DNA from: a virus
Length of the DNA stretch: 40,547 bases
IMG/VR virus record: IMGVR_UViG_3300021083_000286
Location: 1 to 40,547 of that record
Strand: one strand, 5' to 3'
The notes under the pieces were generated by a model. That model searched no databases, was not told the origin of the DNA, and saw nothing but the letters and a program-made list of their open reading frames with translations. This document shows positions 1-28,325 of the stretch, piece by piece (positions within the stretch are counted from its first letter, which is position 1; each line of letters begins with the position of its first letter). A program made the position numbers and the translations under genes.

Positions 1-55
1 AATGAATTATTGAGGCTGATATATGTACTTGAAGAATGTCAGGTTAACAGCGAAG
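1..55. repeat. 55-bp terminal direct repeat, identical to 40493..40547 (circular-assembly overlap or very short terminal redundancy)
   Basis: aatgaattattgaggctgatatatgtacttgaagaatgtcaggttaacagcgaag occurs at both window ends, read directly. Confidence 0.95.
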
Positions 56-2974: not shown

Positions 2975-3053
2975 GTAAATCCTTATATCCTAGTAATATT
3001 ATATATTGTGCCAGTACAACCTACTAGGCTTAAGAGGATTACATAAGAAACCT

Positions 3054-3117
3054 AGATCTAGATCTATTCTAGAAGATCTGAATGTATTAGAGATCTAATA
3101 TATCTTCTATATCTTCT
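3054..3117. repeat. cluster of four AGATCT palindromes (each containing GATC) plus one TCTAGA, followed by a perfect tandem 9-mer ATATCTTCT x2
   Basis: AGATCT at 3054, 3060, 3074 and 3091; TCTAGA at 3068; ATATCTTCT at 3100-3108 and 3109-3117. Confidence 0.9.
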
Positions 3118-3432
3118 CTATTCCTCTACTACCCCTGATACGCTGGATGGTAGGTTAGCAGAGACATAGCAAGAGCCAGGAATCACATAAAACGTGTGAA
3201 TCGCCCTTGCAATGTCAGACACGCCAGACGGCAGGCCCCTTCGACACTATGATGACTTTCCCTAAGATATCAGTTCCTAGGTGCCCACACTGTTCCATCA
3301 ATTCGCAATCAGTCCGCGCCCATGTAGAGTCTTTCTTGACGCGTTTAAATCAAGGTAGGTCGAAACGTTGAAGAGTCCCCGATAACCTCCTACCCCTTAA
3401 CCATATCTCCCTATAGCCCCGTTTAATTGGCT

Positions 3433-3525
3433 TGATAGATATGACTACCAATGATACTAGCACAACTTATTTCTCTTTTGTGATACTATATTTTTGTTAA
3501 CTGTTTATACTTCTATGTGATAGTA
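3433..3525 (+). promoter_or_regulatory. repeated TGATA(C/G)TA motifs, candidate operators/promoter for the downstream Cro-like gene
   Basis: TGATACTA at 3452 and 3481, TGATAGTA at 3518, related TGATAGAT at 3433; spacings 29 and 37 bp. Confidence 0.35.
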
Positions 3526-3540
3526 AACAACCTTATATTA

Positions 3541-3569
3541 GCCCCAATTAACCCCTGGGGCTTCTTTTT
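3541..3569 (+). terminator. intrinsic terminator-like hairpin (GCCCCA / TGGGGC, 9-nt loop) followed by TTCTTTTT
   Basis: Read directly. It lies inside the GTG-started extension of track ORF 3517..3870, which argues for the ATG 3619 start. Confidence 0.55.
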
Positions 3570-3618
3570 GTCTCAAGTTTGCCTTATGATGTATGACATA
3601 GCTCACCCAGGGAAGAAC

Positions 3619-3870
3619 ATGTCCAGACCAAAGCCTACATCCAAACATATAAAAGCTATAGAAGCTGCCATAGATTACTTTGGTAACCAAACAGAACTAG
3701 CCAAAGCCTTAAGCGTTAGCCGTCAACTAGTCAATGATTGGATCAAAGGACGTATCGTTATATCTGTTGAGCAGGCAAGACGTATAGCCAATATGACTCG
3801 CAATCAAATCACTTTCTATGACCTACGACCAGATGTCAAAATAAAAGATAAAAAAGACTTGCAATGGTGA
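3619..3870 (+). CDS. Cro/YdaS-family helix-turn-helix DNA-binding protein
   Basis: GNQTELAKALSVSRQLVNDWIKGR is an HTH, and ...ITFYDLRPD matches the YdaS/Cro-like tail; internal ATG with GGGAAG upstream. Confidence 0.7.
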   Translation: MSRPKPTSKHIKAIEAAIDYFGNQTELAKALSVSRQLVNDWIKGRIVISVEQARRIANMTRNQITFYDLRPDVKIKDKKDLQW

Positions 3871-3909
3871 AATGAGTATTGTATGATCTACTCATACAAG
3901 GGGGTATAT

Positions 3910-4197
3910 ATGAACAGTGATTACTTTGAAGCACATTACAGAGATGAAGACGAGCGTGTCAGTCCATGGGAAAGCCACATGCGCAATGAGGCTGACAGAA
4001 GAAGGGCTGATGAATATTGTGACCTTATGAAAAGCGACAGGGAGTACGAGCATTTCCAATTTGACAGCACTAAGGTTGAGCTAACTGAAGAGGAAGCACA
4101 GCTAAGTGTTGATAAGCTGTACTTTGCTTTACGCTCAGAAAGAGACAGAGAAAGAATGTCAAAGCTCATCAAAGAACAGTATGGAAGGAAATCTTAA
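3910..4197 (+). CDS. hypothetical acidic/charged protein (95 aa)
   Basis: Track ORF 3883..4197; GGGGG RBS 6 nt before ATG 3910. Confidence 0.55.
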   Translation: MNSDYFEAHYRDEDERVSPWESHMRNEADRRRADEYCDLMKSDREYEHFQFDSTKVELTEEEAQLSVDKLYFALRSERDRERMSKLIKEQYGRKS

Positions 4198-5057
4198 TGG
4201 CCCTACGAGCAATTAAACCAGAATCAGTACAGAAAAGACTTAAATGTCTCTTCTACGGCAATGCGGGTGTCGGTAAAACCACTGCGGCCCTTGCCTTTCC
4301 AAAGGTATACCTAATTGACACCGAAAAGGGTGCAGAGAATTCACAATATACTGAGATGCTATCCAAGAATGGTGGTGTCATATTCCAGACTACAGACTTC
4401 GATGAAATGCTGACGGAAGTGACTTCTTTGCTAACGGAGAAGCATGAATATAAGACTCTGGTGATTGATCCCCTTACAACCGTCTATAACGAGCTTGTAG
4501 AGCGTATTGGCTTAAAGACAGGTACAGAGTTCGGTCGCCACATAAGCGAAGCTAATAAGCAAATGAAGCATCTATGCATGCTGTTATTGAGGCTTGACAT
4601 GAATGTGATTATTACAGCACATGCAAAGAATGAGTATGGAACCAATATGGCTGTGTTGGGTAACACATATGATTGCTATAAGAAGCTTGATTATTTATTT
4701 GATTTGGTTTTTGAGATTCAAAAGCGTGGAGCACAAAGGGTGGCTGTTATAAAGAAATCTCGAATCAGCACGCTTCCTGATGGCGAGTCTTTTGAGTTCA
4801 GTTATGATGCATTGGCTGACAAGTATGGACGAGACGTTTTGGAGAGAGATGCTGTATCTCAAGAGCTTGCTACCAATGAAGAGATAGCCGAATTAAATAG
4901 ATTGATTTCGATGCTAAAGATTCCACCAGAGACTTGGAAGAAATGGCTTGATAAGTCAGATTCTGAGACTTTTGCAGAGATGCCAAGAGACAATATCAAG
5001 AAATGCATACAACATTTGACATCTAAAATACCGCAATCCACTGGAGAACCGATATGA
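4197..5057 (+). CDS. Sak4-like RecA-fold ATPase (AAA_24 family), ssDNA-annealing/recombination protein
   Basis: Walker A FYGNAGVGKTT, then LIDTEKG and TLVIDPLT (Walker B-like), the layout of phage Sak4/AAA_24 proteins; followed by an SSB. Confidence 0.75.
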   Translation: MALRAIKPESVQKRLKCLFYGNAGVGKTTAALAFPKVYLIDTEKGAENSQYTEMLSKNGGVIFQTTDFDEMLTEVTSLLTEKHEYKTLVIDPLTTVYNELVERIGLKTGTEFGRHISEANKQMKHLCMLLLRLDMNVIITAHAKNEYGTNMAVLGNTYDCYKKLDYLFDLVFEIQKRGAQRVAVIKKSRISTLPDGESFEFSYDALADKYGRDVLERDAVSQELATNEEIAELNRLISMLKIPPETWKKWLDKSDSETFAEMPRDNIKKCIQHLTSKIPQSTGEPI

Positions 5058-5515
5058 AATTCACACCAAAGACTAAAGATGAGATTGAATCAATGAACCT
5101 ACTTAAACCTGGTATTTACTCATTCAGAGTGGCTAATGCTCATGAGCATACATCCAAGAGCGGCAATGAAATGATAAAACTTACATTGGAAGTATTCGAT
5201 GATGAGGGGAAGACATATACTATGTTTGATTATCTATTGGAAGCTATGTCTACTAAGCTATTTTCATTCTGCTATGCTACCAATTTAGATGGGCAATATA
5301 GCAATGGTGTAATGACGGCGCAAGATTGCATTGGGAAGTGTGGGTATGTTCATATCAGAATTCAGAAGGGCAAAGAGAGCCCACAGGGTGGAACTTATCC
5401 GGATAAGAATGAAGTCAAGTCTTATATGTCAACGAAGCCTGATGCAAAAAGAAACGCTGCACCATTGATTAGCGAGAGTGATGCCAATGGGTTTGATGAC
5501 GATTTACCATTTTGA
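5054..5515 (+). CDS. DUF669-type single-stranded DNA-binding protein
   Basis: N-terminal LKPGIYSFRV...SKSGNEMIKLTLEV pattern and the acidic SSB-type C-terminal tail FDDDLPF; start overlaps the Sak4-like gene stop (ATGA). Confidence 0.7.
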   Translation: MKFTPKTKDEIESMNLLKPGIYSFRVANAHEHTSKSGNEMIKLTLEVFDDEGKTYTMFDYLLEAMSTKLFSFCYATNLDGQYSNGVMTAQDCIGKCGYVHIRIQKGKESPQGGTYPDKNEVKSYMSTKPDAKRNAAPLISESDANGFDDDLPF

Positions 5516-5529
5516 TATAGAGGTGAAAC

Positions 5530-5736
5530 ATGGATGAGAAAGATATAAGATCTCAGATAGAGAATGGTTCTATCATACAGACTATGGAGCAATTATTTAA
5601 GCATTTAATGACCAGCAATATAGATCTAATGGATTTCTTTCATGGTAGGGTTAGGAAAACTGAGAATCATATCACTATGATATATATTCTTATTGTAGTA
5701 ATTTCCTTACCTAATATTATAAGGTTTTTTCAATGA
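5530..5736 (+). CDS. hypothetical protein with C-terminal hydrophobic helix (68 aa)
   Basis: ORF track; GAGGTG before the ATG. Confidence 0.5.
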   Translation: MDEKDIRSQIENGSIIQTMEQLFKHLMTSNIDLMDFFHGRVRKTENHITMIYILIVVISLPNIIRFFQ

Positions 5737-5742
5737 TACGCT

Positions 5743-5817
5743 TGGCGATTAACTCAGCGGTAGAGTAGGTGACTGTTAATCACTTTGTCTCAGGTTCGAT
5801 CCCTGAATCGCCAGCCA
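5743..5817 (+). tRNA. tRNA-Asn: tRNA-Asn (anticodon GTT), CCA encoded
   Basis: Hand-folded cloverleaf: acceptor TGGCGAT/ATCGCCA, D arm ACTC-AGCGGTA-GAGT, anticodon arm GGTGA-CTGTTAA-TCACT, 5-nt variable loop, T arm TCAGG-TTCGATC-CCTGA, discriminator G, CCA. Confidence 0.9.
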
Positions 5818-5832
5818 AATAGGAGAAATGAT

Positions 5833-6132
5833 ATGAGTGGTGGAAGTTATAACTATTTTTGCTTCGACATAGGCAATTTCGCTAATGCTATTGAAAACCA
5901 GCATACAGATCCAAGGCGTGCCAGCTTCGCAAAATTGTTATTGTTAATTAAAAAAGCTGCTCATGATATAGAATGGGTAGATAGTTTTGATTATGGTAAA
6001 GGTGATGAGCATCAAGCCATAGACGAAGTGTTCTCTTTTTTGACGCCAAATCCTGAGGTATTAATTAAGGCACATGCATATGATGAGTTTAAGACGATAG
6101 TGAAATCTTTTTTAGAAACCGAGGAGAAATGA
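5833..6132 (+). CDS. hypothetical protein (99 aa)
   Basis: Track ORF 5785..6132 overlaps the tRNA; AGGAG at 5821-5825 supports ATG 5833 (MSGGSYNYF...). Confidence 0.6.
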   Translation: MSGGSYNYFCFDIGNFANAIENQHTDPRRASFAKLLLLIKKAAHDIEWVDSFDYGKGDEHQAIDEVFSFLTPNPEVLIKAHAYDEFKTIVKSFLETEEK

Positions 6133-6133
6133 T

Positions 6134-6499
6134 ATGTTTGAACTTATGTTAGATGATGTAAAGAAAGCCAAAGATGATAAGCCAAGAAAGGTTAAGTTTT
6201 ATCTTTTTAAGTCAGAATATGATGATATGTTTTTATTAAAGGCTAAGATAGAAGGAAGTTCATCCAAAGATGCCGTTATATTAACTGTTAAATTTGATGG
6301 AGATGATTTAAAGCTAAATATTTCCACCGATATAAACAGTCCCAATAAAGAGATTGTGATGAAACATAGGGCTGAAAAATCTTATTGTGTTGAACATTGG
6401 GCTCTTGTTGAAAATGAAGATGCTGAAGAAGAGGATGAATATGGACAGAAAGAAAGAGAGAAGTTTGTACGTATGGTCAAATCTATGATGGATAGGTAA
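6134..6499 (+). CDS. hypothetical acidic protein (121 aa)
   Basis: ORF track; GAGGAG RBS; tightly packed against the upstream gene. Confidence 0.6.
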   Translation: MFELMLDDVKKAKDDKPRKVKFYLFKSEYDDMFLLKAKIEGSSSKDAVILTVKFDGDDLKLNISTDINSPNKEIVMKHRAEKSYCVEHWALVENEDAEEEDEYGQKEREKFVRMVKSMMDR

Positions 6500-6523
6500 A
6501 TTTTTAACTTATAGGGGAATGTT

Positions 6524-7231
6524 ATGATATTTGTGGACGGAAACGAATTTAAATATGTGACATTCCCTGATAAGACATGTGATTATATGAAAGACAAAAT
6601 GCGCAGAGTAGACCATATCAAGTGGATCTACGATGGCCGTTTAGAAGAAGTATTTATTTGCTTATCTCTACTCAAGAATCAATTCGTAAAATCATTTGAA
6701 TTTGTCTTTCTTCCTTTCGCGAGGCAAGATAAGCAATTCGAAGGATTTGGAGGCTTATATTCTTTCTTAGACTTATTTCATCAATTTCACCATACTACAT
6801 TTTTAGTTAATGATGCACACAACCCGATTTCTTTACCAAAAGGATGGATTAATATTTATGATCCCTTCTTGGTTCCCAATGATGGAAAATCTATGGTCGT
6901 CTTTCCTGATAAAAACGCCCTATTTAAGTATGGATGCCACTATGAGCATATACCGTATATGTATGCAAATAAAGTTAGAATTCAACATTCTGGAGAAATA
7001 GGACAAATCGTATTATTTGAACCTATCCCTGATAACATAGAATCGATCTATGTAATAGATGATATCTGCGATGGAGGAAAGACTTTCATAGAGTTGTTAC
7101 CTCTTTTACCAGAACATACTGTAAAACATTTAATGACGACTTATGGTATATATAGCAAAGGAAAGCAAGTTTTGTATGATGCTGGATATACTTCAGTGAA
7201 ATGCCAGTACAATATTTTCAACAAGGAATGA
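6524..7231 (+). CDS. compact ribose-phosphate pyrophosphokinase (Prs)-family protein; candidate ADPR-pyrophosphate synthetase (Adps) of a NARP1-type pathway
   Basis: LPFARQDKQ (Prs YARQDR motif), DAHN (Prs DLH), MVVFPDKNA (Prs VVSPDxGG) and PRPP loop VIDDICDGGKT; 235 aa, shorter than cellular Prs. Confidence 0.7.
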   Translation: MIFVDGNEFKYVTFPDKTCDYMKDKMRRVDHIKWIYDGRLEEVFICLSLLKNQFVKSFEFVFLPFARQDKQFEGFGGLYSFLDLFHQFHHTTFLVNDAHNPISLPKGWINIYDPFLVPNDGKSMVVFPDKNALFKYGCHYEHIPYMYANKVRIQHSGEIGQIVLFEPIPDNIESIYVIDDICDGGKTFIELLPLLPEHTVKHLMTTYGIYSKGKQVLYDAGYTSVKCQYNIFNKE

Positions 7232-8553
7232 TTATGATAAATACATTATTACATACAGATGTGTACAAAATGGGTCATATGGAACAATATAACCCTGACA
7301 TAGAATATATTCAATCCCATCTAATAGCCCGTAAAGGCGATAAATTTAGTGATTTGGTATTTTTTGGACTGAGATACTACATTGAGAAATATCTCTCTAA
7401 AGCTCCATCAGTGGAAGATGTTCTAAGATTCATAAAAATCAGAGAAATGATTTTAGGACAACCTATATCCGAAGAATCTAAAGATAAGCTGATGAAACTT
7501 GCCGAAATGAAAGAATGGCCCATTTCCATAAAAGCATATAAAGAAGGAACTATCTGTGGCATCCAACAACCATTACTTGTGATAGAAAATACTGCTCCTG
7601 GCATGCATTTCTGCGTAGGGCTTTTAGAGGGATTATTCCTTAAACTTTGGAATACATGTACTGTGGCCACTTATAGCAGAAAACTTAAAGGTATATTTAC
7701 TGAGTATGCTATTAAAACAGGTTCTGATTTGAGAATGATTCCATTCCAAGTTCATGACTTTGGGTATAGAAGCGTTTCATCGGAGGAGACTGCTGCGTTA
7801 TCTGGGGCAGCTCATCTGGTGAATTTTCTTGGAACAGATACGGTATTAGCTGTAGATCTCCTGTCAAGATATTATGGACCTCACGATGAGCCTATTGGAC
7901 TGAGCGTGCCAGCCAGTGAACACAGTGTCATGTGTTCTTTTGGAGAGTCTCAAGAGATAGATGCATTCAGAAATATGCTTAAGCTTTATCCAACAGGAAT
8001 AGTTTCTATTGTTTCTGATACATATGACTTGCATAATGTGCTTGAGAACTTTTCGGATGAACTGCGGGATGAAATATTGGCGAGAGATGGGAAAGTGGTA
8101 TTCAGACCTGATAGTGGAGATCCGGTGGCTATCAGTATTGAAACCATCCAGATCCTGGACAGAAAATTTGGCCATACATTTACTTCAACTGGACATAAAC
8201 TGTTAAATCCTAAAGTTGGAATGATATATGGTGATGGCATGACAAATGATAGGATTGTTCGGACTCTAAAAGGTCTCGAAGAATTAGGTTATGCATCACA
8301 AAATCTGGTTGTAGGCGTTGGAGGCTTATTGCTTCAACAGCATAATAGAGATGATATGGGATTCTCATTCAAGGCTAATTGGGCCATGATGAAGGACGGT
8401 TCCGAGATGGATTTATACAAGACCCCCAAAACAGATCTATCCAAAAGCTCTAAAGGTGGCTATATCCGTAATGAAGAATTTCAAACATATTATTATAATG
8501 GAATTAAATATAGGCAGAATCTTAAATCCATTAGGCAAATAAGTCAGAAGTAG
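7228..8553 (+). CDS. nadV: nicotinamide phosphoribosyltransferase (Nampt/NadV)-family protein; candidate nicotinamide ADPR-transferase (Namat)
   Basis: TDVYKMGH, FFGLRYY, HDFGYRS, GTDT, PASEHS, RPDSGDP, YGDGM, GVGGLLLQ and KSSKGG are the conserved Nampt blocks. ATG 7228 overlaps the upstream TGA (ATGA); ATG 7234 is an alternative start. Confidence 0.85.
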   Translation: MIMINTLLHTDVYKMGHMEQYNPDIEYIQSHLIARKGDKFSDLVFFGLRYYIEKYLSKAPSVEDVLRFIKIREMILGQPISEESKDKLMKLAEMKEWPISIKAYKEGTICGIQQPLLVIENTAPGMHFCVGLLEGLFLKLWNTCTVATYSRKLKGIFTEYAIKTGSDLRMIPFQVHDFGYRSVSSEETAALSGAAHLVNFLGTDTVLAVDLLSRYYGPHDEPIGLSVPASEHSVMCSFGESQEIDAFRNMLKLYPTGIVSIVSDTYDLHNVLENFSDELRDEILARDGKVVFRPDSGDPVAISIETIQILDRKFGHTFTSTGHKLLNPKVGMIYGDGMTNDRIVRTLKGLEELGYASQNLVVGVGGLLLQQHNRDDMGFSFKANWAMMKDGSEMDLYKTPKTDLSKSSKGGYIRNEEFQTYYYNGIKYRQNLKSIRQISQK

Positions 8554-8616
8554 TGATACTAAACATGGCAAACAGTATATACCCAGGGCGGCAATGTATG
8601 CTGTTTGTTGTGTTTA

Positions 8617-8796: not shown

Positions 8797-8910
8797 AATA
8801 TTCTCGCTCGTTGTGCTTATATACAGTATAGGCTACACTTAAACTAGGTTTTGATAGGCTATATTTGCTTAACTGACCACATCCAAATTAACCCTATAGG
8901 AAAAGACATC

Positions 8911-9765
8911 ATGACAGTATTCGTTCCTCAACCAACCCATTTTTCGGCTATTCCCGATTTCACATCCAATCCCTTCGTTACAGGCTTTAACTTGACAGTA
9001 ACCGGCAATACAACCTTCACGATTCAACCAGGTGGCGCTCGCGCATTAACCAGCGATTATGTTATTCAATATCCAACAGTAACTCCTAATCTTCCTGCTG
9101 TTATCACTGTCAATCTTGCTAACCTAGGTGTTAACGGTGTATTCCCATATCTGATCCCTTCAGCTGGTTTCACAGGTCCAATTGTACTGCCCGTATACAT
9201 TATTGCTGATAGCGCTGGTACCACTAATGGCAGCCTGAATGCACAAGCCAATCAGCCTGGTATTATCGTTGCCACTGGTAACAACTTCTTGCCGGCTGGC
9301 TATGATGCATTCCGTCGCATTGGCTGGATACTTGTTAATAATACTAACTCGGTTATCACACCTTGGACTCAAACTGGAAATGGTAATGAGCGTCAATATC
9401 TACTTCCAAATGCATTAACCGTATTGACAAGCGGAAATGCAACCGTGTTTACGCCTATCGATTTGTCATTAGGCGCAAACGGCATTGTTCCTCCTGGATT
9501 CAGTCAAGTTTATTTGAGTCTGAATTTAACTACAGCTCAAATCAATGCATCTTGTTTTGTGCAGCCTTTTGGTGCCTCATTCAGCGCGCCTTCAATCGGT
9601 TTAACATCACCTGTTGCAGGTATGTTGAGTGTTGATGTGACAGCTTCTGCCTCACCTAATGCATTAGGACATGCGGCAATTCAATATGCTGTTGGCGCGA
9701 GCAACTCAAGCTTGACAATTCAGCTCGATGGATTCGTCGATAGCTTAGAAGCTGCGTTGGTTTAG
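8911..9765 (+). CDS. Thr/Asn/Gly/Val-rich protein (284 aa), paralog A; putative virion-surface/receptor-binding protein of unknown family
   Basis: ATG 8911 gives 284 aa, the same length as the paralog 9830..10684. Shared blocks: NLTVTG-TTFTI-PG-AR, PVYI-A, IVAT-N-FLP, A-RRIG, PW-QTGN-N-R-Y-L, GFVD-L. Confidence 0.6.
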   Translation: MTVFVPQPTHFSAIPDFTSNPFVTGFNLTVTGNTTFTIQPGGARALTSDYVIQYPTVTPNLPAVITVNLANLGVNGVFPYLIPSAGFTGPIVLPVYIIADSAGTTNGSLNAQANQPGIIVATGNNFLPAGYDAFRRIGWILVNNTNSVITPWTQTGNGNERQYLLPNALTVLTSGNATVFTPIDLSLGANGIVPPGFSQVYLSLNLTTAQINASCFVQPFGASFSAPSIGLTSPVAGMLSVDVTASASPNALGHAAIQYAVGASNSSLTIQLDGFVDSLEAALV

Positions 9766-9829: not shown

Positions 9830-10684
9830 ATGGCGTTTTTCACACCTGAACCCATCTCATTCGCTACTACGCCATTTTTTGGGTCAGACGCATATGTCAG
9901 TGGATTAAACTTGACCGTTACAGGTCTAACCACTTTCACAATTGGTCCAGGAAGTGCTAGAGATTTGGTTACTGATTATCCAATAGTTTTCAGTAATGCT
10001 ATTGCAGGAAACCCTCCTGCCATTACAGTCGATATATCCACAACAGGTCTTAATGGATGCTTTCCGGTTCCTCTGGCTTCTTTAAATCTTGCATTTAATA
10101 CTGTCTTTCCCGTCTATATTGTTGCTAATACTGAAGGAACAACCAGTGGAAATCAAAATCCATCAACCAATCCAGCGATCATCGTAGCAACTGCAAATGA
10201 ATTTTTGCCTAAAAACATGAATGCTTATCGTCGTATTGGTTTCATTTATGTGAGCAGTGGTAGCGGCTTCATTATACCCTGGTCGCAGACCGGTAATAAT
10301 AATGATCGCACATATATGCTCGCTGAAGCTGTTGTTGTCTTGGCAGCTGGTGTTGCCGGTGTTTACACCGATGTAGACTTAACTGCATCTGCAGGCCCAG
10401 TTCCACCCAATACACGCTCTTTGGTGTATATCAATACATCAGTGACTTCGGCTGTCCCAGGCGACTCGGTTCAGTTTACAACAGGTAATTTGAGCCCTGC
10501 TACTTACACTACAATCTCTATTGTGCAAACAGGTGCTGCTCCACTGCCTACAATGACGACATTGCTGGCAACACCCGATGAAGTAACAGGTCATGCTGAA
10601 ATTAGATACCGCGTCACAGGTGGTGCAGCTGCAAGCTTACGCGTATCTGGGTTCGTTGATAACCTTGGTCCATCATTGTTTTAA
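9830..10684 (+). CDS. Thr/Asn/Gly/Val-rich protein (284 aa), paralog B of 8911..9765
   Basis: ORF track; AAGGAG RBS; conserved blocks shared with paralog A. Confidence 0.65.
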   Translation: MAFFTPEPISFATTPFFGSDAYVSGLNLTVTGLTTFTIGPGSARDLVTDYPIVFSNAIAGNPPAITVDISTTGLNGCFPVPLASLNLAFNTVFPVYIVANTEGTTSGNQNPSTNPAIIVATANEFLPKNMNAYRRIGFIYVSSGSGFIIPWSQTGNNNDRTYMLAEAVVVLAAGVAGVYTDVDLTASAGPVPPNTRSLVYINTSVTSAVPGDSVQFTTGNLSPATYTTISIVQTGAAPLPTMTTLLATPDEVTGHAEIRYRVTGGAAASLRVSGFVDNLGPSLF

Positions 10685-10729: not shown

Positions 10730-11296
10730 TTATAACAATTGAATACCAAAACCTGTTCCCAATGGAGTTATCCAATAGTTCGTTGATGAAGTATTTTTAC
10801 TTAAGGAATCGATAGCTATTCCCCATACGCCAGCCGTTAAAGATTGCGTCCATACAAAAGAAATAAAGCTTTGTCCTGAACCATTATATCCGTCAAGCGG
10901 AGTTGCTACTCCATTTATAGTAGCCGTCATCATTCCAATATTGGTACCGGTGCGCATACCCATTGTAAACTGATAAGTTCCATCAATTGGGGCATTAAAG
11001 TTTACTGTTCCGAAAGTCGTATTAGGGGTTCCATCAAATCCAGAACTATTTTGACTCAATGCGGGAGCCCAATAATAATCGCCACCACCACCACCTCCAA
11101 CAAAATAGTTCCAGCTCGTCCATGGAATGATAAAGGAAGTAGGATTGTAAGTTGCTATAGTTGAGAAGCTTAAATTCTTTGCTCCGTCAGTAACCATGGC
11201 CTGCCCTGCAAATCCGTCAACAGTAGGATAATTAATGCCTGCAGCAGTAAATCCATCATTTGCATTAATCATATTATTTACAATAATTTCTGACAT
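10730..11296 (-). CDS. tail fibre protein (188 aa)
   Basis: N-terminal INYPTVDGFAGQAMVTDGAKNLSFSTI matches an internal linker of 13320..15548; poly-Gly hinge; last gene of the fibre locus. Confidence 0.6.
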   Translation of the reverse strand: MSEIIVNNMINANDGFTAAGINYPTVDGFAGQAMVTDGAKNLSFSTIATYNPTSFIIPWTSWNYFVGGGGGGDYYWAPALSQNSSGFDGTPNTTFGTVNFNAPIDGTYQFTMGMRTGTNIGMMTATINGVATPLDGYNGSGQSFISFVWTQSLTAGVWGIAIDSLSKNTSSTNYWITPLGTGFGIQLL

Positions 11297-11327
11297 AATA
11301 ATTTCCTATTAATTAATTTGCTAATAT

Positions 11328-12668
11328 TTAAACTACTTTTTCCCAACATCCACTAATAATAACTTCACCCGATAAATAATCTATTGTTCCTCCGCTATAA
11401 ACCGCAAATAGATTTACGCCGGGTTGCGTTATTGTGTCTAAAGCTACAGATGATGGGAAAGGTACAGATGCGCTTCCCCATCTAGAATTTAAGGATGTTA
11501 TTAGGCTTGCGCTTGGAATAGTTGAATAAATAGTAGTTCCATCGGTAATATTAAGATCTCTATCCCCGCCAAGTAAATTTAAAGAATTATAGTTTAAAAA
11601 TAACTCTCTAACTCGATATTGGCCCCCAAAAAATGTACTAACCAAAGGGACTGATGCCCCACCTGATAACTGAGTAAACGTCACAGTTGTGTCAAAGTAG
11701 ATTAAATTTGACATTGGATCTACTTGTGTCAATTTGCATGGCAATAAAGTAACATTGGCAAAAGCAACATTGGGCAAAGCATGAGATGTCCCTACAGAGG
11801 TAGGCTGATTAGAAATTGATGTAGTTACGTTAGCAAGATTTGCGTTAGGTAAAATCAACATATAGCCAGTATTTGACGATGCAGGATAAGCTTGAACTTG
11901 ACCAAGCGCACCATTAGTTCCTGCAATTAAATTTCCCGCCAAAGCCTGCACATATCCTGTATTAGAAACAACATTACCAGAATTGGAAGTAACATCACCT
12001 TGGGCATAAAGAAAACCACTACTTGCAGAAATATTACCAGAAGTAGAAGTAATATCACTCAACGCAGTCCATGAACCTGATGTACCGGTTATATTAATAC
12101 CAACTACGCCAGCTGCATCTGTTCCGCTTCTTATTTGAGTATTATATAAAACATTGCCACCACCTGCTAAAAGAATATCCCCCTCAAGAGCTATAGATGA
12201 TGTGATTAAACATGCCCCAGCAGGGCCAACATGATTAATTACTGTTCCTGCAGATTGAAGAATATCGATATATCCAAATAATTCACCACCATTATTTGTT
12301 ATAGCAGTTCCAGTTCCAGAATTAGTAATGCCTGCCATCTGAAAAAATATCTTACAATTAAGCCCAATCGTTACTGTATCTCCAACTCCAGAAAAGTTAA
12401 TCTGTGCAGCAGGTCCAAAAAAGAATAAGTTCTCAGTGCTAGGAGCGAAATTTAATTGTTCATCATAAGTAGCTCCATCCATTATATTAATAATTACCGG
12501 AGCAGATGGAGAAGGAGACCCAGCTAAGGTTAGGGCCGCATTCAAAGTTGCTAATGGTGCTCCGAAACTACCTGAATTTAGATCGTTTCCTGTCATCTGA
12601 GAAACGTATATTTCGAATCCATTGAACTTTCCATTATTAATCATGTTATTCATAATAGGATTAGTCAT
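11328..12668 (-). CDS. tailspike-like protein with parallel beta-helix (pectin-lyase-fold) cap motif; putative polysaccharide depolymerase
   Basis: YVSQMTGNDLNSGSFGAPLATLNAAL...GATYDE cap motif. The C-terminal roughly 95 aa (GGDRDLNITDGT...YSGGTIDY) is paralogous to the C-terminus of 16767..18110. Confidence 0.6.
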   Translation of the reverse strand: MTNPIMNNMINNGKFNGFEIYVSQMTGNDLNSGSFGAPLATLNAALTLAGSPSPSAPVIINIMDGATYDEQLNFAPSTENLFFFGPAAQINFSGVGDTVTIGLNCKIFFQMAGITNSGTGTAITNNGGELFGYIDILQSAGTVINHVGPAGACLITSSIALEGDILLAGGGNVLYNTQIRSGTDAAGVVGINITGTSGSWTALSDITSTSGNISASSGFLYAQGDVTSNSGNVVSNTGYVQALAGNLIAGTNGALGQVQAYPASSNTGYMLILPNANLANVTTSISNQPTSVGTSHALPNVAFANVTLLPCKLTQVDPMSNLIYFDTTVTFTQLSGGASVPLVSTFFGGQYRVRELFLNYNSLNLLGGDRDLNITDGTTIYSTIPSASLITSLNSRWGSASVPFPSSVALDTITQPGVNLFAVYSGGTIDYLSGEVIISGCWEKVV

Positions 12669-12678
12669 TATAATTTCC

Positions 12679-12912
12679 TTATGCGACCGTTAGTCCTGTG
12701 GAGAATACATAATCTACTTGCCACGTAGTATTTGCAACAATACAAGTTACCAATACCAAATCTGTATTAGCAGCAGATGTTAATGTTCCGCCTGTAGATG
12801 TTGGTGTAGTTCCTAGATTAATGGTTTGACCACCAGCTGCTTGTAATATCCAGCCTGCAGCACCTTGACCATAAACCTTTACAACAGAACCAATGGCTGC
12901 GGTCGCAGGCAA
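12679..12912 (-). CDS. orphan tail-fibre C-terminal tip domain (77 codons), no in-frame ATG; TTG start, recoding or recombination cassette
   Basis: 63 of 77 positions identical (my count) to the last 77 aa of 13320..15548. The frame opens directly after a TAA. The RBS plus ATGATG at 12937 is one nucleotide out of frame. Confidence 0.5.
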   Translation of the reverse strand: MPATAAIGSVVKVYGQGAAGWILQAAGGQTINLGTTPTSTGGTLTSAANTDLVLVTCIVANTTWQVDYVFSTGLTVA

Positions 12913-12944
12913 TTAACATATTATTCGTAGTCATCATAATCTCC

Positions 12945-13310
12945 TTAGTAGTAAATAGCCCAAGTGTTCACACCTTGGTTAACAAGCCAAAAATTGAAAT
13001 TACTCAGATTTGTTGGCGTTCCAGAAACTGTCACATCTGTATTAGATGCAATTGTAATCATTGCACCTGTGGTATTGCTGACAAATACACTTACACCTTC
13101 ATTCAACCCAATTTTTGGGAACTGAATAGAATAATTTGTACCCGTATCTGCTGTCCAAATAGATGGACCTACTGCTGTATTAGAAAATACCCTGGCAGGA
13201 ATTAAAATGGCATCTAAAGAAACAGTATCAGACACAATCGCTTGCGGTGTCACAGATTCAAATGGAAGCAATGAAGCTTCCGGAACATTTAAAATATTGT
13301 TAATAGACAT
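12945..13310 (-). CDS. small tail-fibre-associated protein (121 aa)
   Basis: ORF track; the C-terminal half follows the same pattern as the tip modules (F-L-VN-GVNTWAIYY); lies inside the fibre locus. Confidence 0.5.
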   Translation of the reverse strand: MSINNILNVPEASLLPFESVTPQAIVSDTVSLDAILIPARVFSNTAVGPSIWTADTGTNYSIQFPKIGLNEGVSVFVSNTTGAMITIASNTDVTVSGTPTNLSNFNFWLVNQGVNTWAIYY

Positions 13311-13319
13311 TTTTTCCCC

Positions 13320-15548: not shown

Positions 15549-15572
15549 GATAATTTCTCCTAATAAATTAAA

Positions 15573-16757
15573 TTACGGGCTAACAGTAGCCATATCGCCT
15601 GATACAATCCAAATATTATCTGTATATTTCCACGCATAAATCACAGCGCCCGCGCCTGCAGTTCCTACCGGAAGAGTTTGGTTCGCTATGATTGTAACGC
15701 CTGCGCCTGCTACCAAGCTTACAGCCCCAATACCTAACTGAACAAATGTGATCTGAGTTCCAATAGGAATAGCAACGGATGAAGTCTGAGGCAATGTATA
15801 ATCACCTATGACCGCTGCGTTATAAACGACTCGTGTATTACTATCGACAATGGCTAAAGTACGACCCACTGTTTCAGTGCTTGGAGGCGTTTGATACATC
15901 AAATGATTCAAATATGTAGTATCACCATATACTTGATTCAATGGAGTTCCATTTAATGTCTGAATGCTACCCATGATCGTAGAACCAGTGTCAAATGTGA
16001 AAGTACAATCTATAGCATTCACAATAGTCGGGGAAAATTGACCCGTTGCAGTTATATGTATGTTAGAGGTGATCTGAGCAACTTCACGAAGCACCAATCC
16101 ACCTTCATCATAAATATCTCCCTGAATAACCCCTGCGCTAAGGAACATATTTGAAAGTGCTCCTGAAATGCTCACTGATTTTCCAGATCCATAATTAAAC
16201 AAAGCAGCCACATTAATGACGGCCAAAGTATCGTCACCACTATCATTTATAGTGAGCAAATCACCGGAATTACAATTGATAGAGGCATTAGGCCCCCATA
16301 TTTGTAAGCTATAGGGTAATACCACATTTTCATAGTAGGACCCATCATCAAGAATAATGACGACCCCTTGTTGGGAAGGACTCAACATCAACGCAGAAAT
16401 AGCAGATCCAATTTTTAACTTAGGAAGCCCAATACTTGTTCCTGGATTCAAATCTGAACCGCCTTTAGCAACAAATTGAGTTTGTGTGAATATGAAACTA
16501 TTGCTATTCGGAGAATAAACATTAAGTGAATATACGCCATCAGTAATAGAGACCACAAGCATCGCAAATTCTGTGTTTGCATTAAAAATTGTAAATATCA
16601 CATCATTATCTTGTAAGTCATAACCTGCAAGCGCAACTGTGTTCAAAAATCCTGGAGTAGTGATGGTAGAATAACTTTCATCACTATTCAAAAACCAAAG
16701 GCCCGGACGAACACCAGTTTCTGAAAATGGTAACGGGGTTAGTATATTTGTTGACAT
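15573..16757 (-). CDS. tailspike-like protein with beta-helix cap motif (394 aa)
   Basis: FVAKGGSDLNPGTSIGLPKLKIGSAISAL...DGSYYEN; N-terminal domain paralogous to 13320..15548. Confidence 0.6.
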   Translation of the reverse strand: MSTNILTPLPFSETGVRPGLWFLNSDESYSTITTPGFLNTVALAGYDLQDNDVIFTIFNANTEFAMLVVSITDGVYSLNVYSPNSNSFIFTQTQFVAKGGSDLNPGTSIGLPKLKIGSAISALMLSPSQQGVVIILDDGSYYENVVLPYSLQIWGPNASINCNSGDLLTINDSGDDTLAVINVAALFNYGSGKSVSISGALSNMFLSAGVIQGDIYDEGGLVLREVAQITSNIHITATGQFSPTIVNAIDCTFTFDTGSTIMGSIQTLNGTPLNQVYGDTTYLNHLMYQTPPSTETVGRTLAIVDSNTRVVYNAAVIGDYTLPQTSSVAIPIGTQITFVQLGIGAVSLVAGAGVTIIANQTLPVGTAGAGAVIYAWKYTDNIWIVSGDMATVSP

Positions 16758-16766
16758 CTCAATCTC

Positions 16767-18110: not shown

Positions 18111-18119
18111 TAATTATCC

Positions 18120-19046: not shown

Positions 19047-19054
19047 TTTTCACC

Positions 19055-19438
19055 TTAAAATTGTGGTGGAATTCTGTAAGAAATACCGACACCAACGCCC
19101 GCTTGTGTCGTTATAAGCTGCAGCGTCTGTCCAGGTAGTACCAATCTTGCACTCGGATTCAATTCTGCAGTTGTTGCAGCCAACGTAGTAGTTGGGATCG
19201 TCAATGTCGGCGTGGCAGATGGTTGAATAAATACGCCCGGATTACCTGGTGCTGTAGATATGAAATATTTAAAATATGCCACTAATCGCGCATAGTTTCC
19301 TCTAGGAACAGTTACAACAAATGGCGTGTTTGGAGTCAAAAAGAAATATTGATTAGTATCAGTGAACGGGAAAGCTGTTTCAGAACCGGTTGTTGGATAT
19401 CCATTTATATCCCTTACAATTGTTAATGGTGAGGCCAT
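19055..19438 (-). CDS. hypothetical virion/tail-associated protein (127 aa)
   Basis: ORF track; position between fibre genes; no recognisable motif. Confidence 0.45.
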   Translation of the reverse strand: MASPLTIVRDINGYPTTGSETAFPFTDTNQYFFLTPNTPFVVTVPRGNYARLVAYFKYFISTAPGNPGVFIQPSATPTLTIPTTTLAATTAELNPSARLVLPGQTLQLITTQAGVGVGISYRIPPQF

Positions 19439-19447
19439 GGTTATCTC

Positions 19448-25605: not shown

Positions 25606-25615
25606 AACTTCTCTC

Positions 25616-27573: not shown

Positions 27574-27580
27574 TCCTCAA

Positions 27581-28306: not shown

Positions 28307-28325
28307 ATTTCCTCCTATAAGGAAG

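What the first reader, a model, noticed from the sequence alone, without database searches (positions are those of the whole stretch)
6524..8553. Prs-like + Nampt-like coupled gene pair with NARP1 (Adps-Namat) architecture: candidate NAD+-reconstitution counter-defence module
Seen: a compact 235-aa protein keeps the Prs hallmarks: LPFARQDKQ for YARQDR, DAHN for DLH, MVVFPDKNA for VVSPDxGG, and PRPP loop VIDDICDGGKT. Its TGA overlaps (ATGA at 7228-7231) the start of a roughly 441-aa Nampt-family protein with blocks TDVYKMGH, HDFGYRS, PASEHS, RPDSGDP, GVGGLLLQ and KSSKGG. No NMN-adenylyltransferase-like ORF is visible anywhere in this complete genome. Established (from memory of the 2024 description of phage NAD+ reconstitution pathways): NARP1 pairs a Prs homologue (ADPR-pyrophosphate synthetase, Adps) with a Nampt homologue (nicotinamide ADPR-transferase, Namat). 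It rebuilds NAD+ from ADPR and nicotinamide and overcomes NAD+-depleting defences such as Thoeris, DSR and SIR2-HerA. NARP2 and KVP40 NadV-NatV instead pair Nampt with an Nmnat. Inference: this pair is NARP1-like rather than ordinary salvage. The unusually short Prs-like partner may be a minimal variant. The two unknown genes (5833..6499) and the tRNA just upstream in the same operon may belong to the same counter-defence block.
Basis: partly seen in the sequence, partly recalled or inferred. Interest (0 to 1): 0.85.

Follow-up and report, generated by a model that had tools for sequence, protein, structure and literature searches.

The report
Compact NARP1-like NAD-rebuilding gene pair
A small uncultured phage carries two overlapping genes that most likely rebuild NAD+ after a bacterial defence has destroyed it, but the second enzyme sits on an undescribed branch that lacks the adenine clamp published as the hallmark of such enzymes.

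Summary
A 235-aa Prs-like ORF (6524-7231) ends in an ATGA overlap with a 441-aa Nampt-family ORF (7228-8553). The genome is complete (55-bp terminal repeat) and has no Nmnat, Nudix, NadR or Macro gene.

The Prs-like protein is an Adps-type enzyme. It has every catalytic and acceptor residue of ICP1 Adps and the Adps-specific PP loop DDICDGGxTF (canonical Prs has DDMIDTGGT). It groups with Nampt-adjacent Prs-likes, apart from the three canonical Prs included.

The partner is not a canonical Namat. It lacks the published selectivity clamp (GGLLLQQHNRD instead of GS[FY]T[FY]Q[FY]xTRD) and has a short clamp loop. It belongs to a third lineage, here called class C. Class C is Adps-linked in 46 of 50 cases and never NadM-linked. 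It occurs in uncultured phages and in nrtR-prs-nadV loci of Pedobacter and other bacteria. None appeared among the best matches in 50,697 phage records.

The window's subclade is further miniaturised in both proteins.

Best reading (about 0.55): a compact NARP1-type ADPR + nicotinamide to NAD+ module with non-canonical or relaxed donor recognition. Main rival: PRPP to NMN salvage completed by the host.

The upstream ORFs and the tRNA show no link to the pair.

New variant of a known kind; moderate interest.

The parts
6524..7231 (+). Adps-type (Prs-like) gene, 235 aa; putative ADP-ribose pyrophosphokinase, miniaturised
   Evidence: ORF. phrog_619 at 7.8e-22. It aligns end to end with ICP1 Adps. 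ICP1 F18/R87/D89/F92/H121/D161/K185/R187/D212/D213/C215/D216/G217/F221 correspond to window F14/R67/D69/F72/H99/D129/K150/R152/D179/D180/C182/D183/G184/F188. The PP loop DDICDGGKTF is the Adps type. The NJ clade with Nampt-adjacent Prs-likes against canonical Prs has 86.5% support. The AF2 model has pLDDT 93.6 and a PRPP-synthetase fold.
7228..8553 (+). Nampt-family transferase gene, 441 aa, 'class C' (Adps-coupled, clamp-less, insertion-less subclade); putative nicotinamide ADPR-transferase with non-canonical donor recognition
   Evidence: Pfam NAPRTase plus NAMPT_N, and NCBIfam PRK09198. The catalytic core is intact: D11, Y13, F178, R181, D204, A229, H232, R293, D295, G335, D336, R374, D375. 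The clamp-helix segment is G365-G-L-L-L-Q-Q-H-N-R-D375, which lacks the Namat aromatics.
7228..7231 (+). ATGA stop/start overlap coupling the two genes
   Evidence: Read directly in the sequence. The same overlapping arrangement occurs in relatives L006, L173 and L174.
8586..8606 (+). terminator-like hairpin with a T-rich tail, 33 nt after the stop; possible 3' end of the transcription unit (weak)
   Evidence: Consensus scan. Five such sites were found against 2.8 expected, so this alone is not significant.

Best explanation
The two overlapping genes form a compact NARP1-type NAD+ reconstitution module.

Step 1 (inferred from sequence): the 235-aa Adps-type enzyme transfers the beta,gamma-pyrophosphate of ATP to the distal ribose of ADP-ribose. 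This makes ADPR-PP.

Step 2 (inferred from partnership and context): the 441-aa Nampt-family enzyme replaces the pyrophosphate with nicotinamide and regenerates NAD+ directly. No NMN adenylyltransferase is therefore needed. The module would let the phage replicate in hosts whose SIR2, TIR or SEFIR-type defences cleave NAD+ to ADPR and nicotinamide.

The transferase belongs to a third lineage of the Nampt family, class C. This lineage is coupled to Adps genes but lacks the aromatic adenine clamp of characterised Namats. Its recognition of ADPR-PP must therefore be built differently or be less selective, and it may also accept PRPP.

The window's subclade has in addition lost the IICGDP... insertion and several loops in both proteins. 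It is a miniaturised cassette that moves between unrelated phage backbones.
For: Shown by sequence:
- The Prs-like protein keeps every residue reported as essential or substrate-contacting in ICP1 Adps (PMC13586617; mapping).
- At three PP-loop positions, partners of class A have C/G/F in 71, 70 and 72 of 72 sequences. The three canonical Prs included have I/T/(L or I). The window has C182, G184 and F188.
- Pairwise phmmer of the window Prs-like hits 113 Nampt-adjacent Prs-likes, including a Felix-O1-like Adps at 57 bits. It misses E. coli and Sulfolobus Prs.
- The NJ clade separating these from canonical Prs has 86.5% support.

Nampt family:
- The split (class A + class C) against class B has 100% bootstrap.
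- The IICGDP insertion is shared by A (91/91), C1 (35/35) and most of C2, and is absent from B (0/22).

Context:
- Class C has a Prs-like gene within 1.5 kb in 46 of 50 unique loci and NadM in 0 of 50.
- Class B has 1 of 20 and 17 of 20. Fisher p = 3e-12 and 1e-13.
- Every relative in the window subclade with a recovered gene neighbourhood has a short Adps-type gene overlapping upstream. These sit in several different phage backbones.
- No Nmnat, Nudix or NadR gene occurs in the complete 40.5-kb genome.
- Bacterial class C loci are nrtR-prs-nadV. The NrtR anti-repressor is ADP-ribose (PMC2330246).

Against: - The transferase fails the published Namat signature GS-X-Phi-X-Phi-X-Phi-TRD, which has aromatics at positions 3 and 7 (PMC12774641). 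The window has L367 and Q371 there.
- It also has the Nampt state (G, G, G) at the class-A-specific S190, S362 and S391.
- Its clamp loop is short, with D38 where Namats have R or K.
- In SpbetaL1 Namat, double clamp mutants lose up to 16.6-fold of ADPR-PP-dependent NAD+ synthesis while keeping NMN synthesis.
- The window protein scores higher on a class B (Nampt) profile (456 bits) than on a class A (Namat) profile (411 bits).
- It matches Xcc Nampt (268 bits) slightly better than SpbetaL1 Namat (259 bits).
- No class C member has been assayed.
- The Prs-like protein is a long branch. E. coli Prs scores higher than it does on an Adps-family profile, so its clade placement rests mainly on the PP-loop motif, pairwise hits and synteny.
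- The trees are NJ, unrooted and have few canonical Prs outgroups.
Confidence: 0.55

Rival explanations
1. Ordinary nicotinamide salvage boosted by a dedicated PRPP supply. The Prs-like enzyme makes PRPP from ribose-5-phosphate. The Nampt-like enzyme makes NMN. Host enzymes (NadR, NadD or NadM, or PncC then NadD and NadE) finish NAD+. This would be a NARP2-like route without its own Nmnat.
For: - The transferase has Nampt-type residues at every position that distinguishes Namat from Nampt.
- It lacks the IICGDP insertion, like class B.
- It scores higher on the class B profile than on the class A profile.
- Its AF2 model matches human NAMPT (TMq 0.92) at least as well as Namat 9w5x (0.90).
- Bacterial prs-nadV operons were originally read this way (PMC2330246).
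- Even true Namats make NMN from PRPP in vitro.
Against: - The Prs-like partner carries the Adps-specific donor-site loop (C182, G184, F188) rather than the DTGGT loop found in the three canonical Prs compared here. By prior knowledge that loop binds the ribose-5-phosphate phosphate.
- The SpbetaL1 homologue of this family made ADPR-PP from ADPR and ATP, and no PRPP synthesis was detected.
- Nampt homologues that work through NMN almost always bring their own NadM (17 of 20 here; 94% in Osterman). Class C never does (0 of 50).
- The single canonical Prs found next to a Nampt (L022) comes with NadM and a class B Nampt.
Confidence: 0.22
2. A bispecific or differently specific module. The clamp-less transferase accepts both PRPP and ADPR-PP. 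Alternatively the pair handles a modified acceptor, for example 2'-phospho-ADPR to rebuild NADP+, which an aromatic adenine clamp would disfavour.
For: - Class C has its own conserved features at the clamp. His or another aromatic occupies SpbetaL1 position 397: C1 has 26 H plus 8 W/Y/F of 35, and C2 has 13 H of 15. In C1 an Arg replaces Q395, and the clamp-loop position 40 is basic (K or R in 32 of 35).
- KVP40 Nampt, which has no clamp, still makes some NAD+ from ADPR-PP.
- NrtR of S. oneidensis responds to phospho-ADPR as well as ADPR.
Against: - No direct evidence exists.
- His at position 397 also occurs in the NadM-linked B1VFA enzyme, so it is not specific to Adps coupling.
- The window itself has D38, not a basic residue, at the clamp-loop position.
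- The NADP+ idea is pure speculation.
Confidence: 0.15
3. A decaying or non-functional remnant of a larger NARP1 operon. On this reading the shortening reflects gene erosion.
For: Both proteins are shorter than family norms: 235 aa against about 280, and 441 aa against about 475-490. The block is GC-poor, at 36.3% against 40.1% for the genome.
Against: - All catalytic residues are intact.
- The same trimmed architecture is conserved in a 99%-supported subclade at 58-81% identity across several phage backbones.
- The AF2 models are confident, with pLDDT 93.6 and 85.6.
- The deletions fall in loops.
Confidence: 0.03

Closest known systems
NARP1 (Adps + Namat) of phages Bas63, SpbetaL1, Fado and ICP1 (Osterman et al. 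2024; bioRxiv 10.1101/2024.02.11.579819)
   Same: - A two-gene cassette with the Prs-homologue first and the Nampt-homologue second, tightly coupled, and no Nmnat in the genome.
- The Prs-homologue has the Adps-type PP loop and all Adps catalytic and acceptor residues.
- The Nampt-homologue lies on the Adps-associated side of the family's deepest split.
   Different: - The transferase is outside the 100%-supported clade that holds all assayed Namats.
- It lacks the aromatic selectivity clamp, the longer clamp loop and (in this subclade) the IICGDP insertion.
- Both proteins are about 10-15% shorter.
- No biochemical or plaque data exist for any member of this lineage.
Namat of SpbetaL1 (PDB 9W5X/9W5W; Lan et al. 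2026, PMC12774641)
   Same: Nampt fold and an identical catalytic core. SpbetaL1 D13, Y15, F189, R192, D215, A242, H245, R306, D308, G360, D361, R399 and D400 correspond to window D11, Y13, F178, R181, D204, A229, H232, R293, D295, G335, D336, R374 and D375.
   Different: The adenine-contacting residues F392, Y396, T398 and R40 correspond to L367, Q371, N373 and D38 in the window. S190, S362 and S391 are all G in the window. The phmmer score is only 259 bits, whereas true Namats score 423-666 bits to 9W5X.
Adps of Vibrio phage ICP1 (Liu et al. 2026, PMC13586617)
   Same: PRPS-like two-domain fold. The residues F18, R87, F92, H121, D161, K185, D212, D213, C215, D216 and F221 are all conserved. 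The C-terminal alpha11-alpha12 regulatory module is absent.
   Different: - 235 aa against about 280 aa, with several trimmed loops and a shorter C-terminus.
- About 27% identity.
- F223 corresponds to E190, and A218-A219-S220 correspond to G-K-T.
NARP2 / KVP40 NadV-NatV (Nampt + NadM-Nudix)
   Same: The transferase resembles these Nampts at the clamp helix (GGxLLQ..RD), in the short clamp loop and in lacking the insertion. The best hit among cultured phages is the NadM-linked Nampt of Rhizobium phage B1VFA (41.7%).
   Different: There is no Nmnat or NadM anywhere in the genome. The partner is an Adps-type Prs-like protein. The NJ split from class B has 100% support.
Bacterial nrtR-prs-nadV operons (Rodionov et al. 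2008, PMC2330246)
   Same: The closest cellular relatives, at about 50% identity, are Pedobacter, Mucilaginibacter and other loci with NrtR (NUDIX + NrtR_WHD), a Prs-like gene with DDICDGG and a class C Nampt-like gene. The gene order prs then nadV is the same.
   Different: The phage has no NrtR. The bacterial proteins are full-length (279 and about 483 aa) and carry the variant motif GVGG-ILRNHSRD. They are chromosomal and ADPR-regulated, and presumably have a housekeeping role.

Membership tests
NARP1 (operational definition of Osterman et al.) | A Prs homologue that falls in the Adps clade, separate from cellular Prs | tested here: met
   The NJ clade of all Nampt-adjacent Prs-likes against E. 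coli Prs, Sulfolobus Prs and a NadM-linked phage Prs has 86.5% support. The PP-loop positions are C182, G184 and F188. Pairwise hits go to Adps-type proteins only. Caveats: the window protein is a long branch and only three canonical outgroups were used.
NARP1 (operational definition of Osterman et al.) | A Namat/Nampt homologue within ten genes of the adps gene | tested here: met
   The genes are adjacent, with an ATGA overlap at 7228-7231.
NARP1 (operational definition of Osterman et al.) | The transferase lies in the Adps-associated clade, distinct from the Nmnat-associated (NARP2) clade | tested here: inconclusive
   It lies on the Adps-associated side of a 100% split from class B. It is, however, outside the 100%-supported clade that holds all assayed Namats. 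The tree is unrooted, and the profile score is higher for class B than for class A.
NARP1 (operational definition of Osterman et al.) | No Nmnat in the same genome | tested here: met
   The genome is complete. Pfam scans of 42 ORFs and a NadM-Nudix HMM were negative.
NARP1 (operational definition of Osterman et al.) | ADPR + ATP gives ADPR-PP, then with nicotinamide gives NAD+; rescue from NAD+-depleting defences | not testable with these tools
   This needs enzyme assays and plaque assays.
Namat (Lan et al. 2026 signature) | Conserved Nampt-like catalytic core including the phosphorylatable His | tested here: met
   D11, Y13, F178, R181, D204, A229, H232, R293, D295, G335, D336, R374 and D375 are present.
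Namat (Lan et al. 2026 signature) | [quoted passage not shown] | tested here: not met
   The window has G-G-L-L-L-Q-Q-H-N-R-D (residues 365-375), with L367 and Q371 at the two aromatic positions. Of 91 unique class A sequences, 89 have F or Y at position 3, and 78 have Y or F (plus 10 H) at position 7.
Namat (Lan et al. 2026 signature) | Clamp loop (beta1-beta2) that contributes a stacking R, K or Y residue | tested here: inconclusive
   The loop is 2 residues shorter than in SpbetaL1 and has the length seen in Nampts. The aligned residue is D38, flanked by K36 and K39. Loop alignment is ambiguous.
Adps (Liu et al. 2026) | PRPS-like two-domain fold | tested here: met
   AF2 pLDDT 93.6 and pTM 0.89. 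Foldseek top hits are all PRPP synthetases with TMq 0.66-0.74. The profile against the PDB gives 7e-32.
Adps (Liu et al. 2026) | Acceptor-groove residues R87, H121, D161, D212, D213, D216 and catalytic K185 | tested here: met
   R67, H99, D129, D179, D180, D183 and K150.
Adps (Liu et al. 2026) | Remodelled PP loop and donor site (C215-S220, F221), conserved across Adps homologues | tested here: met
   C182-D-G-G-K-T187 plus F188. The consensus of 116 Nampt-adjacent Prs-likes is DDICDGGxTF, against DDMIDTGGT(L/I) in canonical Prs.
Adps (Liu et al. 2026) | Loss of the C-terminal alpha11-alpha12 filament and regulatory module | tested here: met
   The protein ends about 20 residues before ICP1 Adps in alignment A1.
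Canonical PRPP synthetase (Prs) | Passes curated Prs models and has the ribose-5-phosphate loop DxxDTGGT | tested here: not met
   Pfam Pribosyltran scores 15.1 bits against a cut-off of 26.3, with no Pribosyltran_N hit. NCBIfam Prs scores 11.9 bits against a cut-off of 484. The single sequence gives no PDB Prs hit at E<10. The loop is DDICDGGKT.
Canonical Nampt / NARP2 | Membership of the Nampt clade (class B) and linkage to an Nmnat (NadM or NatV) | tested here: not met
   The 100% NJ split separates it from class B. NadM is linked in 0 of 50 class C loci against 17 of 20 class B loci. None occurs in this genome.

The most novel reading that the evidence does not exclude
Class C is a third, functionally distinct lineage of Adps-coupled Nampt-family transferases. 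It may be an evolutionary intermediate between Nampt and Namat, or an independent solution. It would rebuild NAD+ from ADPR-PP without the aromatic adenine clamp, or it would have a broader or different donor range (PRPP plus ADPR-PP, or a phosphorylated ADPR-PP giving NADP+). If so, the published clamp motif would not be the universal determinant of ADPR-PP use. The window's 235 + 441 aa pair would be the smallest natural NARP1-type module.
Probability: 0.35. Interest if true: 0.65.

Novelty: new variant of a known kind. Interest (0 to 1): 0.5.

Why it matters
NARP1 is an established phage counter-defence, so one more instance would be routine. The added point is that about 30% of the Adps-linked Nampt homologues sampled here (50 of 159 classified unique sequences, in a sample biased towards this query) lack the selectivity clamp that was published in 2026 as the signature separating Namat from Nampt. 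These sequences were not among the best matches in the phage genome collection searched here, a later release of the collection on which NARP1 was defined.

If they do make NAD+ from ADPR-PP, three things follow:
- The clamp rule for annotating NARP1 is incomplete.
- NARP1 is under-counted in uncultured phages.
- The bacterial nrtR-prs-nadV operons, whose second prs paralogue was called unexplained in 2008, gain an explanation as ADPR-induced ADPR recycling.

If instead they make NMN, then an Adps-type PP loop does not imply ADPR chemistry, which matters equally for annotation.

The miniaturised pair is also a convenient minimal scaffold for structural and engineering work.

Tried and rejected
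- Megablast of the locus against 50,697 phage records found no match.
- phmmer of the single Prs-like sequence against the PDB gave only a spurious hit. A family profile was needed.
- PADLOC gave no hits on the pair or on seven neighbouring ORFs, including 5833-6132 and 6134-6499.
- Foldseek of the Nampt-like model cannot separate Nampt from Namat (TMq 0.92 against 0.90).
- Class-profile scoring gave a result opposite in sense to the tree. The window scores higher on class B than on class A, and E. coli Prs scores higher than the window on the Adps-family profile. I therefore do not use profile scores for clade assignment, and I flag the window Prs-like protein as a long branch.
- I tested whether position 22 of Adps (E to T) is diagnostic. 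It is not.
- His at clamp position 397 was considered as an alternative adenine-stacking residue. It was weakened because the NadM-linked B1VFA enzyme also has it.
- I tested whether the ~230-aa Nudix neighbours in bacteria are ADPR pyrophosphatases feeding a Prs. They are NrtR regulators (NUDIX + NrtR_WHD).
- I tested whether class C exists among cultured phages, using a Pedobacter query. The top hits (Gordonia BrutonGaster, and the crAss-like DAC15 and cr85_1) are all class A.
- I tested linkage of ORFs 5833-6132 and 6134-6499 to the pair. None was found.
- Rooting with NAPRTase was considered and not attempted because the sequences are too divergent for NJ.
One family scan failed on wrong coordinates.
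Full report
**1. Observation**

The two ORFs are exactly as described. ORF 6524..7231 (+) encodes 235 aa with LPFARQDKQ, NDAHNP, MVVFPDKNA and VIDDICDGGKT. Its TGA (7229-7231) overlaps an ATG at 7228, forming ATGA. That ATG opens a 441-aa Nampt-family ORF ending at 8553. Public gene callers used an earlier in-frame ATG at 7201 (450 aa), and ATG 7234 is also possible. tRNA-Asn(GTT) is at 5743-5817.

The second ORF is a Nampt-family protein well beyond chance:
- Pfam NAPRTase 3e-43 plus NAMPT_N.
- NCBIfam PRK09198 1.5e-135.
- phrog_448 4e-134.

The first ORF is below the Pfam and NCBIfam Prs cut-offs but matches phrog_619 'ribose-phosphate pyrophosphokinase' at 7.8e-22. A profile of its family hits PRPP-synthetase structures over the full length at 7e-32. 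Its AlphaFold2 model (pLDDT 93.6, pTM 0.89) superposes on PRPP synthetases with TMq 0.66-0.74 at 12-18% identity.

**2. Genome context**

The contig has an exact 55-bp terminal direct repeat (1-55 = 40493-40547). It is therefore a complete circular or circularly permuted genome of 40,492 bp.

Pfam scans covered 42 ORFs: 38 ORFs of at least 90 aa plus the four at 5833-8553. Apart from the two genes of the pair, the only hits were RusA, a YdaS/Cro-type HTH, AAA_24, DUF669, a P22-like portal, a weak terminase hit and two weak HTH matches. No cytidylyltransferase-type Nmnat, Nudix, NadR or Macro domain was found. A NadM-Nudix HMM built from viral loci finds nothing in the window.

The portal is at most 25% identical to any cultured phage, and the locus has no megablast match. 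The phage is a deep uncultured lineage with an unknown host.

**3. The Prs-like protein is Adps-type**

It aligns end to end with ICP1 Adps and with the Prs-like genes of Felix-O1-like, Kayvirus and mycobacteriophage NARP1 operons. Every residue that Liu et al. (PMC13586617) report as contacting ADPR or ATP, or as catalytic, is conserved:

| ICP1 Adps | Window |
|---|---|
| F18 | F14 |
| R87 | R67 |
| F92 | F72 |
| H121 | H99 |
| D161 | D129 |
| K185 | K150 |
| D212/D213 | D179/D180 |
| C215 | C182 |
| D216 | D183 |
| F221 | F188 |

I compared 116 Nampt-adjacent Prs-likes with three canonical Prs: E. coli, Sulfolobus 4TWB, and a phage Prs that sits next to NadM and a canonical Nampt. Three PP-loop positions separate the two kinds. 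Among the 72 partners of class A, the residues are C, G and F in 71, 70 and 72 sequences. In the canonical Prs they are I, T and L or I. The motifs are DDICDGGxTF against DDMIDTGGT. The window has the Adps states.

An NJ tree with 200 bootstraps separates all Nampt-adjacent Prs-likes from the canonical Prs at 86.5%. Pairwise phmmer of the window protein hits 113 Nampt-adjacent Prs-likes. The canonical phage Prs comes last (E = 5e-5), and E. coli and Sulfolobus Prs are not hit at all.

One caveat applies. The window protein is a long branch, and E. coli Prs scores higher than it does on an Adps-family profile (148 against 79 bits). The assignment therefore rests on the PP-loop motif, pairwise similarity and synteny rather than on profile scores.

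**4. The Nampt-like protein is not a canonical Namat**

Lan et al. (PMC12774641) define Namat by a conserved catalytic core plus a selectivity clamp. The clamp has two parts:
- A helix motif G-S-X-Phi-X-Phi-X-Phi-T-R-D, with aromatics at positions 3 and 7 (SpbetaL1 F392 and Y396).
- A beta1-beta2 loop that supplies a stacking R, K or Y (R40).

Double clamp mutants lose up to 16.6-fold of ADPR-PP-driven NAD+ synthesis but keep NMN synthesis.

The window keeps the whole catalytic core: D11, Y13, F178, R181, D204, A229, H232, R293, D295, G335, D336, R374 and D375. Its clamp helix, however, reads G365-G-L-L-L-Q-Q-H-N-R-D375, so L367 and Q371 replace the aromatics. S190, S362 and S391 of Namat are all Gly, as in Nampt. 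The clamp loop is two residues shorter than in SpbetaL1 Namat and about as long as in Xcc Nampt, with D38 at the R40 column.

Against the PDB, the window scores 268 bits to Xcc Nampt, about 254-267 to eukaryotic (human and other mammalian) Nampt, 259 to SpbetaL1 Namat and 226 to 9KE8. True Namats (ICP1, Staphylococcus phage A5W) score 423-666 bits to SpbetaL1 Namat and only 133-229 to Nampts.

**5. Three classes of the family**

I collected 80 IMG/VR loci and 80 GTDB loci around relatives, plus reference phages. I called ORFs and searched the neighbours with HMMs. The clamp-helix motif sorts the family into three classes.

| Class | Motif | Members | Typical neighbour |
|---|---|---|---|
| A | G[IV]GS[FY]TYQ[YFH]xTRD | SpbetaL1, ICP1, Felix-like, Kayvirus, DirkDirk, crAss-like DAC15 and cr85_1, Gordonia BrutonGaster | Prs-like gene within 1.5 kb in 71 of 89 unique loci |
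| B | G[MS]GG[GA]LLQKxxRD | Xcc and human Nampt, Rhizobium phage B1VFA | Full-length NadM-Nudix in 17 of 20; Prs in 1 of 20 |
| C | GVGG-ILRNHSRD (C1; Pedobacter, Mucilaginibacter, CPR, Bdellovibrionales) or GVGG[LI]LLQQHNRDD (C2; the window, Nitrospiraceae, Pirellulales, viral contigs) | as listed | Prs-like in 46 of 50; NadM in 0 of 50 |

The difference between C and B is significant by Fisher's test (p = 3e-12 for Prs, 1e-13 for NadM).

NJ trees with 200 bootstraps give these supports:
- (A + C) against B: 100%.
- A monophyletic: 100%.
- C as a clade: 64%.
- The window's seven-member subclade: 99%.

A 12-13-residue insertion (IICGDPxA...KG after RPDSGDP) is present in A (91/91), C1 (35/35) and most of C2. 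It is absent from B (0/22). It is secondarily absent from the window's subclade, whose members are 418-453 aa.

In raw profile score the window is nearer to B (456 bits) than to A (411 bits), and far nearer to the rest of C2 (597) and to C1 (527). Class C thus lies between Nampt and Namat in the unrooted tree. It shares synteny and the insertion with A, and the clamp region with B.

**6. Class C appears absent from the cultured-phage record**

The best tblastn hit of the window protein in 50,697 phage records is the NadM-linked B1VFA enzyme at 41.7%. A Pedobacter class C1 query returns Gordonia and crAss-like phages at about 45%, and all of them carry the class A motif.

The NARP1 and Namat analyses of Osterman et al. 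and Lan et al. were based on INPHARED phages, plus bacterial hits to SpbetaL1 Namat. This probably explains why the published logo shows no class C state. I found no paper assaying a class C member.

**7. Bacterial counterpart**

In Pedobacter and many other genomes the class C gene is preceded by a 279-aa Prs-like gene with DDICDGG, and upstream of that by a ~235-aa protein. The latter is an NrtR regulator (NUDIX 6e-20 plus NrtR_WHD 1.7e-21). It matches only the Nudix half of NadM-Nudix.

These are the nrtR-prs-nadV operons of Rodionov et al. 2008. There ADP-ribose relieves NrtR repression, and the dedicated second prs paralogue was left unexplained. An ADPR-induced, ADPR-consuming Adps-Namat-like pair would explain that. 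This is an inference. Class A bacterial loci have the same NrtR linkage.

**8. Mobility and miniaturisation**

Every relative of the window subclade for which a gene neighbourhood was recovered has a short Adps-type gene (233-273 aa; the PP loop DDICDGGxTF was checked in L006, L173, L174 and L175) overlapping the start of the Nampt-like gene. The flanks differ:

| Locus | Flanking genes |
|---|---|
| L006 | between ERF and SSB |
| L173 | after RecT, YopX and DUF6847 |
| L174, L175 | in a DNA-polymerase A / DnaB backbone |
| Window | after AAA_24, DUF669 and a tRNA |

The pair is therefore a self-contained mobile cassette. In the window it is GC-poor, at 36.3% against 40.1% for the genome, which places it in the lowest 5% of windows. 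Both proteins are trimmed in loops, yet they fold confidently in silico. This argues against decay.

**9. The upstream genes**

ORF 5833-6132 (99 aa) belongs to a widespread family of about 95-100-aa phage proteins, with 133 clusters (itself included) at 32-63% identity. In other ~39-kb phage contigs they sit in arrays of small early genes with no Prs or Nampt nearby.

ORF 6134-6499 is an ORFan, with one distant relative among 1.84 billion representatives.

Neither ORF has a homologue in any of the 168 Nampt loci other than copies of this same phage. Neither has a Pfam, PHROG or PADLOC hit. They share the low GC of the pair, but nothing else ties them or the tRNA to it.

**10. Mechanism and verdict**

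Most likely (about 0.55), the pair is a NARP1-type module:
- The Adps-type enzyme makes ADPR-PP from ADPR and ATP.
- The class C transferase joins nicotinamide to it and gives NAD+ without an Nmnat.
- This counters NAD+-depleting defences.

Shown here:
- The Adps-type sequence signature.
- The conserved coupling of the two genes.
- The absence of Nmnat.
- The family placement of both proteins.

Inferred:
- Both chemistries.
- The counter-defence role.

The main rival (about 0.22) is PRPP to NMN salvage finished by host enzymes. It is favoured by the Nampt-like clamp region. It is disfavoured by the Adps-type donor loop and by the complete lack of NadM linkage. A bispecific or altered-substrate enzyme (about 0.15) is not excluded.

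The finding is a new variant of a known kind. It is ordinary as another NARP1-like cassette. It is interesting because it exposes an Adps-coupled lineage that breaks the published Namat signature.

Noticed in passing
window 1-55 and 40493-40547: An exact 55-bp direct repeat at the two contig ends. This is the usual mark of an assembled circular or circularly permuted genome, so the unique length is 40,492 bp.
   Followed up: yes
window 5833-6132 (+): This 99-aa ORF belongs to a large family (133 clusters including itself, 32-63% identity) of ~95-100-aa phage proteins with no Pfam, PHROG or PADLOC hit. In other ~39-kb phage contigs (L176-L178) it lies in an array of small early genes. Four genes downstream there is a weak Acb2/Tad1-hairpin match. 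It is possibly an anti-defence-island resident, but its function is unknown.
   Followed up: partly
window 6134-6499 (+): This 121-aa acidic-tailed ORF is an ORFan. It has only one distant relative (32% identity, E = 2e-8) among 1.84 billion representative proteins.
   Followed up: yes
window 8851-9765 and 9830-10684 (+): Two tandem paralogous ~300-aa proteins (phmmer 4.5e-54 to each other), with a homologue in the related contig L006 (8663-9514). They have no Pfam hit and lie just after the NAD pair, at the junction with the opposite-strand structural block.
   Followed up: partly
window 12677-12883 / 13318-13524 and 11376-11423 / 16818-16865: Diverged direct repeats (207 nt at 78% identity; 48 nt at 75%) around and inside large minus-strand ORFs with no Pfam hit. 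They suggest duplicated modules in these genes.
   Followed up: no
window 10730-30360 (- strand): None of the 17 consecutive large ORFs scanned in this stretch has any Pfam hit at E<0.01. The portal is at most 25% identical to any cultured phage. This is a very deep uncultured phage lineage.
   Followed up: partly
window 5833-8553: A GC-poor block (32-38% against a genome mean of 40.1%; GC3 26-32%) covers the two unknown ORFs and the NAD pair. This is consistent with an acquired accessory region.
   Followed up: partly
L093 3344-6455 (Pedobacter sp. HMWF019) and about 20 similar GTDB loci: Chromosomal nrtR (NUDIX + NrtR_WHD), then a Prs-like gene with the Adps-type loop DDICDGG, then a class C Nampt-like gene. 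These ADPR-regulated operons may be bacterial NARP1-like ADPR recyclers that lack the Namat clamp.
   Followed up: partly
L022 (IMGVR_UViG_3300025161_000004) about 3000-6443: A viral contig with a canonical Prs (DDMIDTGAT loop), NadM-Nudix and a class B Nampt side by side. This is a self-sufficient PRPP to NMN to NAD+ three-gene set, and the only Prs-linked class B case.
   Followed up: no
PDB 9KE8/9KEO (seen) and L005 3078-3986 (Staphylococcus phage A5W): 9KE8 is deposited as 'nicotinamide phosphoribosyltransferase'. It is Namat-like (532 bits to the Kayvirus enzyme) but has Q and R at the two aromatic clamp positions (GAQTYQRNTRD). The A5W Adps homologue has a deviant PP loop (DDLTSYGGTF). 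Both show that the published motifs vary even inside class A.
   Followed up: no
L003 3001-3147 (Vibrio phage ICP1 MZ292654): The annotated ICP1 Namat ORF starts about 50 residues into the protein, although tblastn similarity extends upstream. This is probably a mis-called start or a strain-specific lesion.
   Followed up: no
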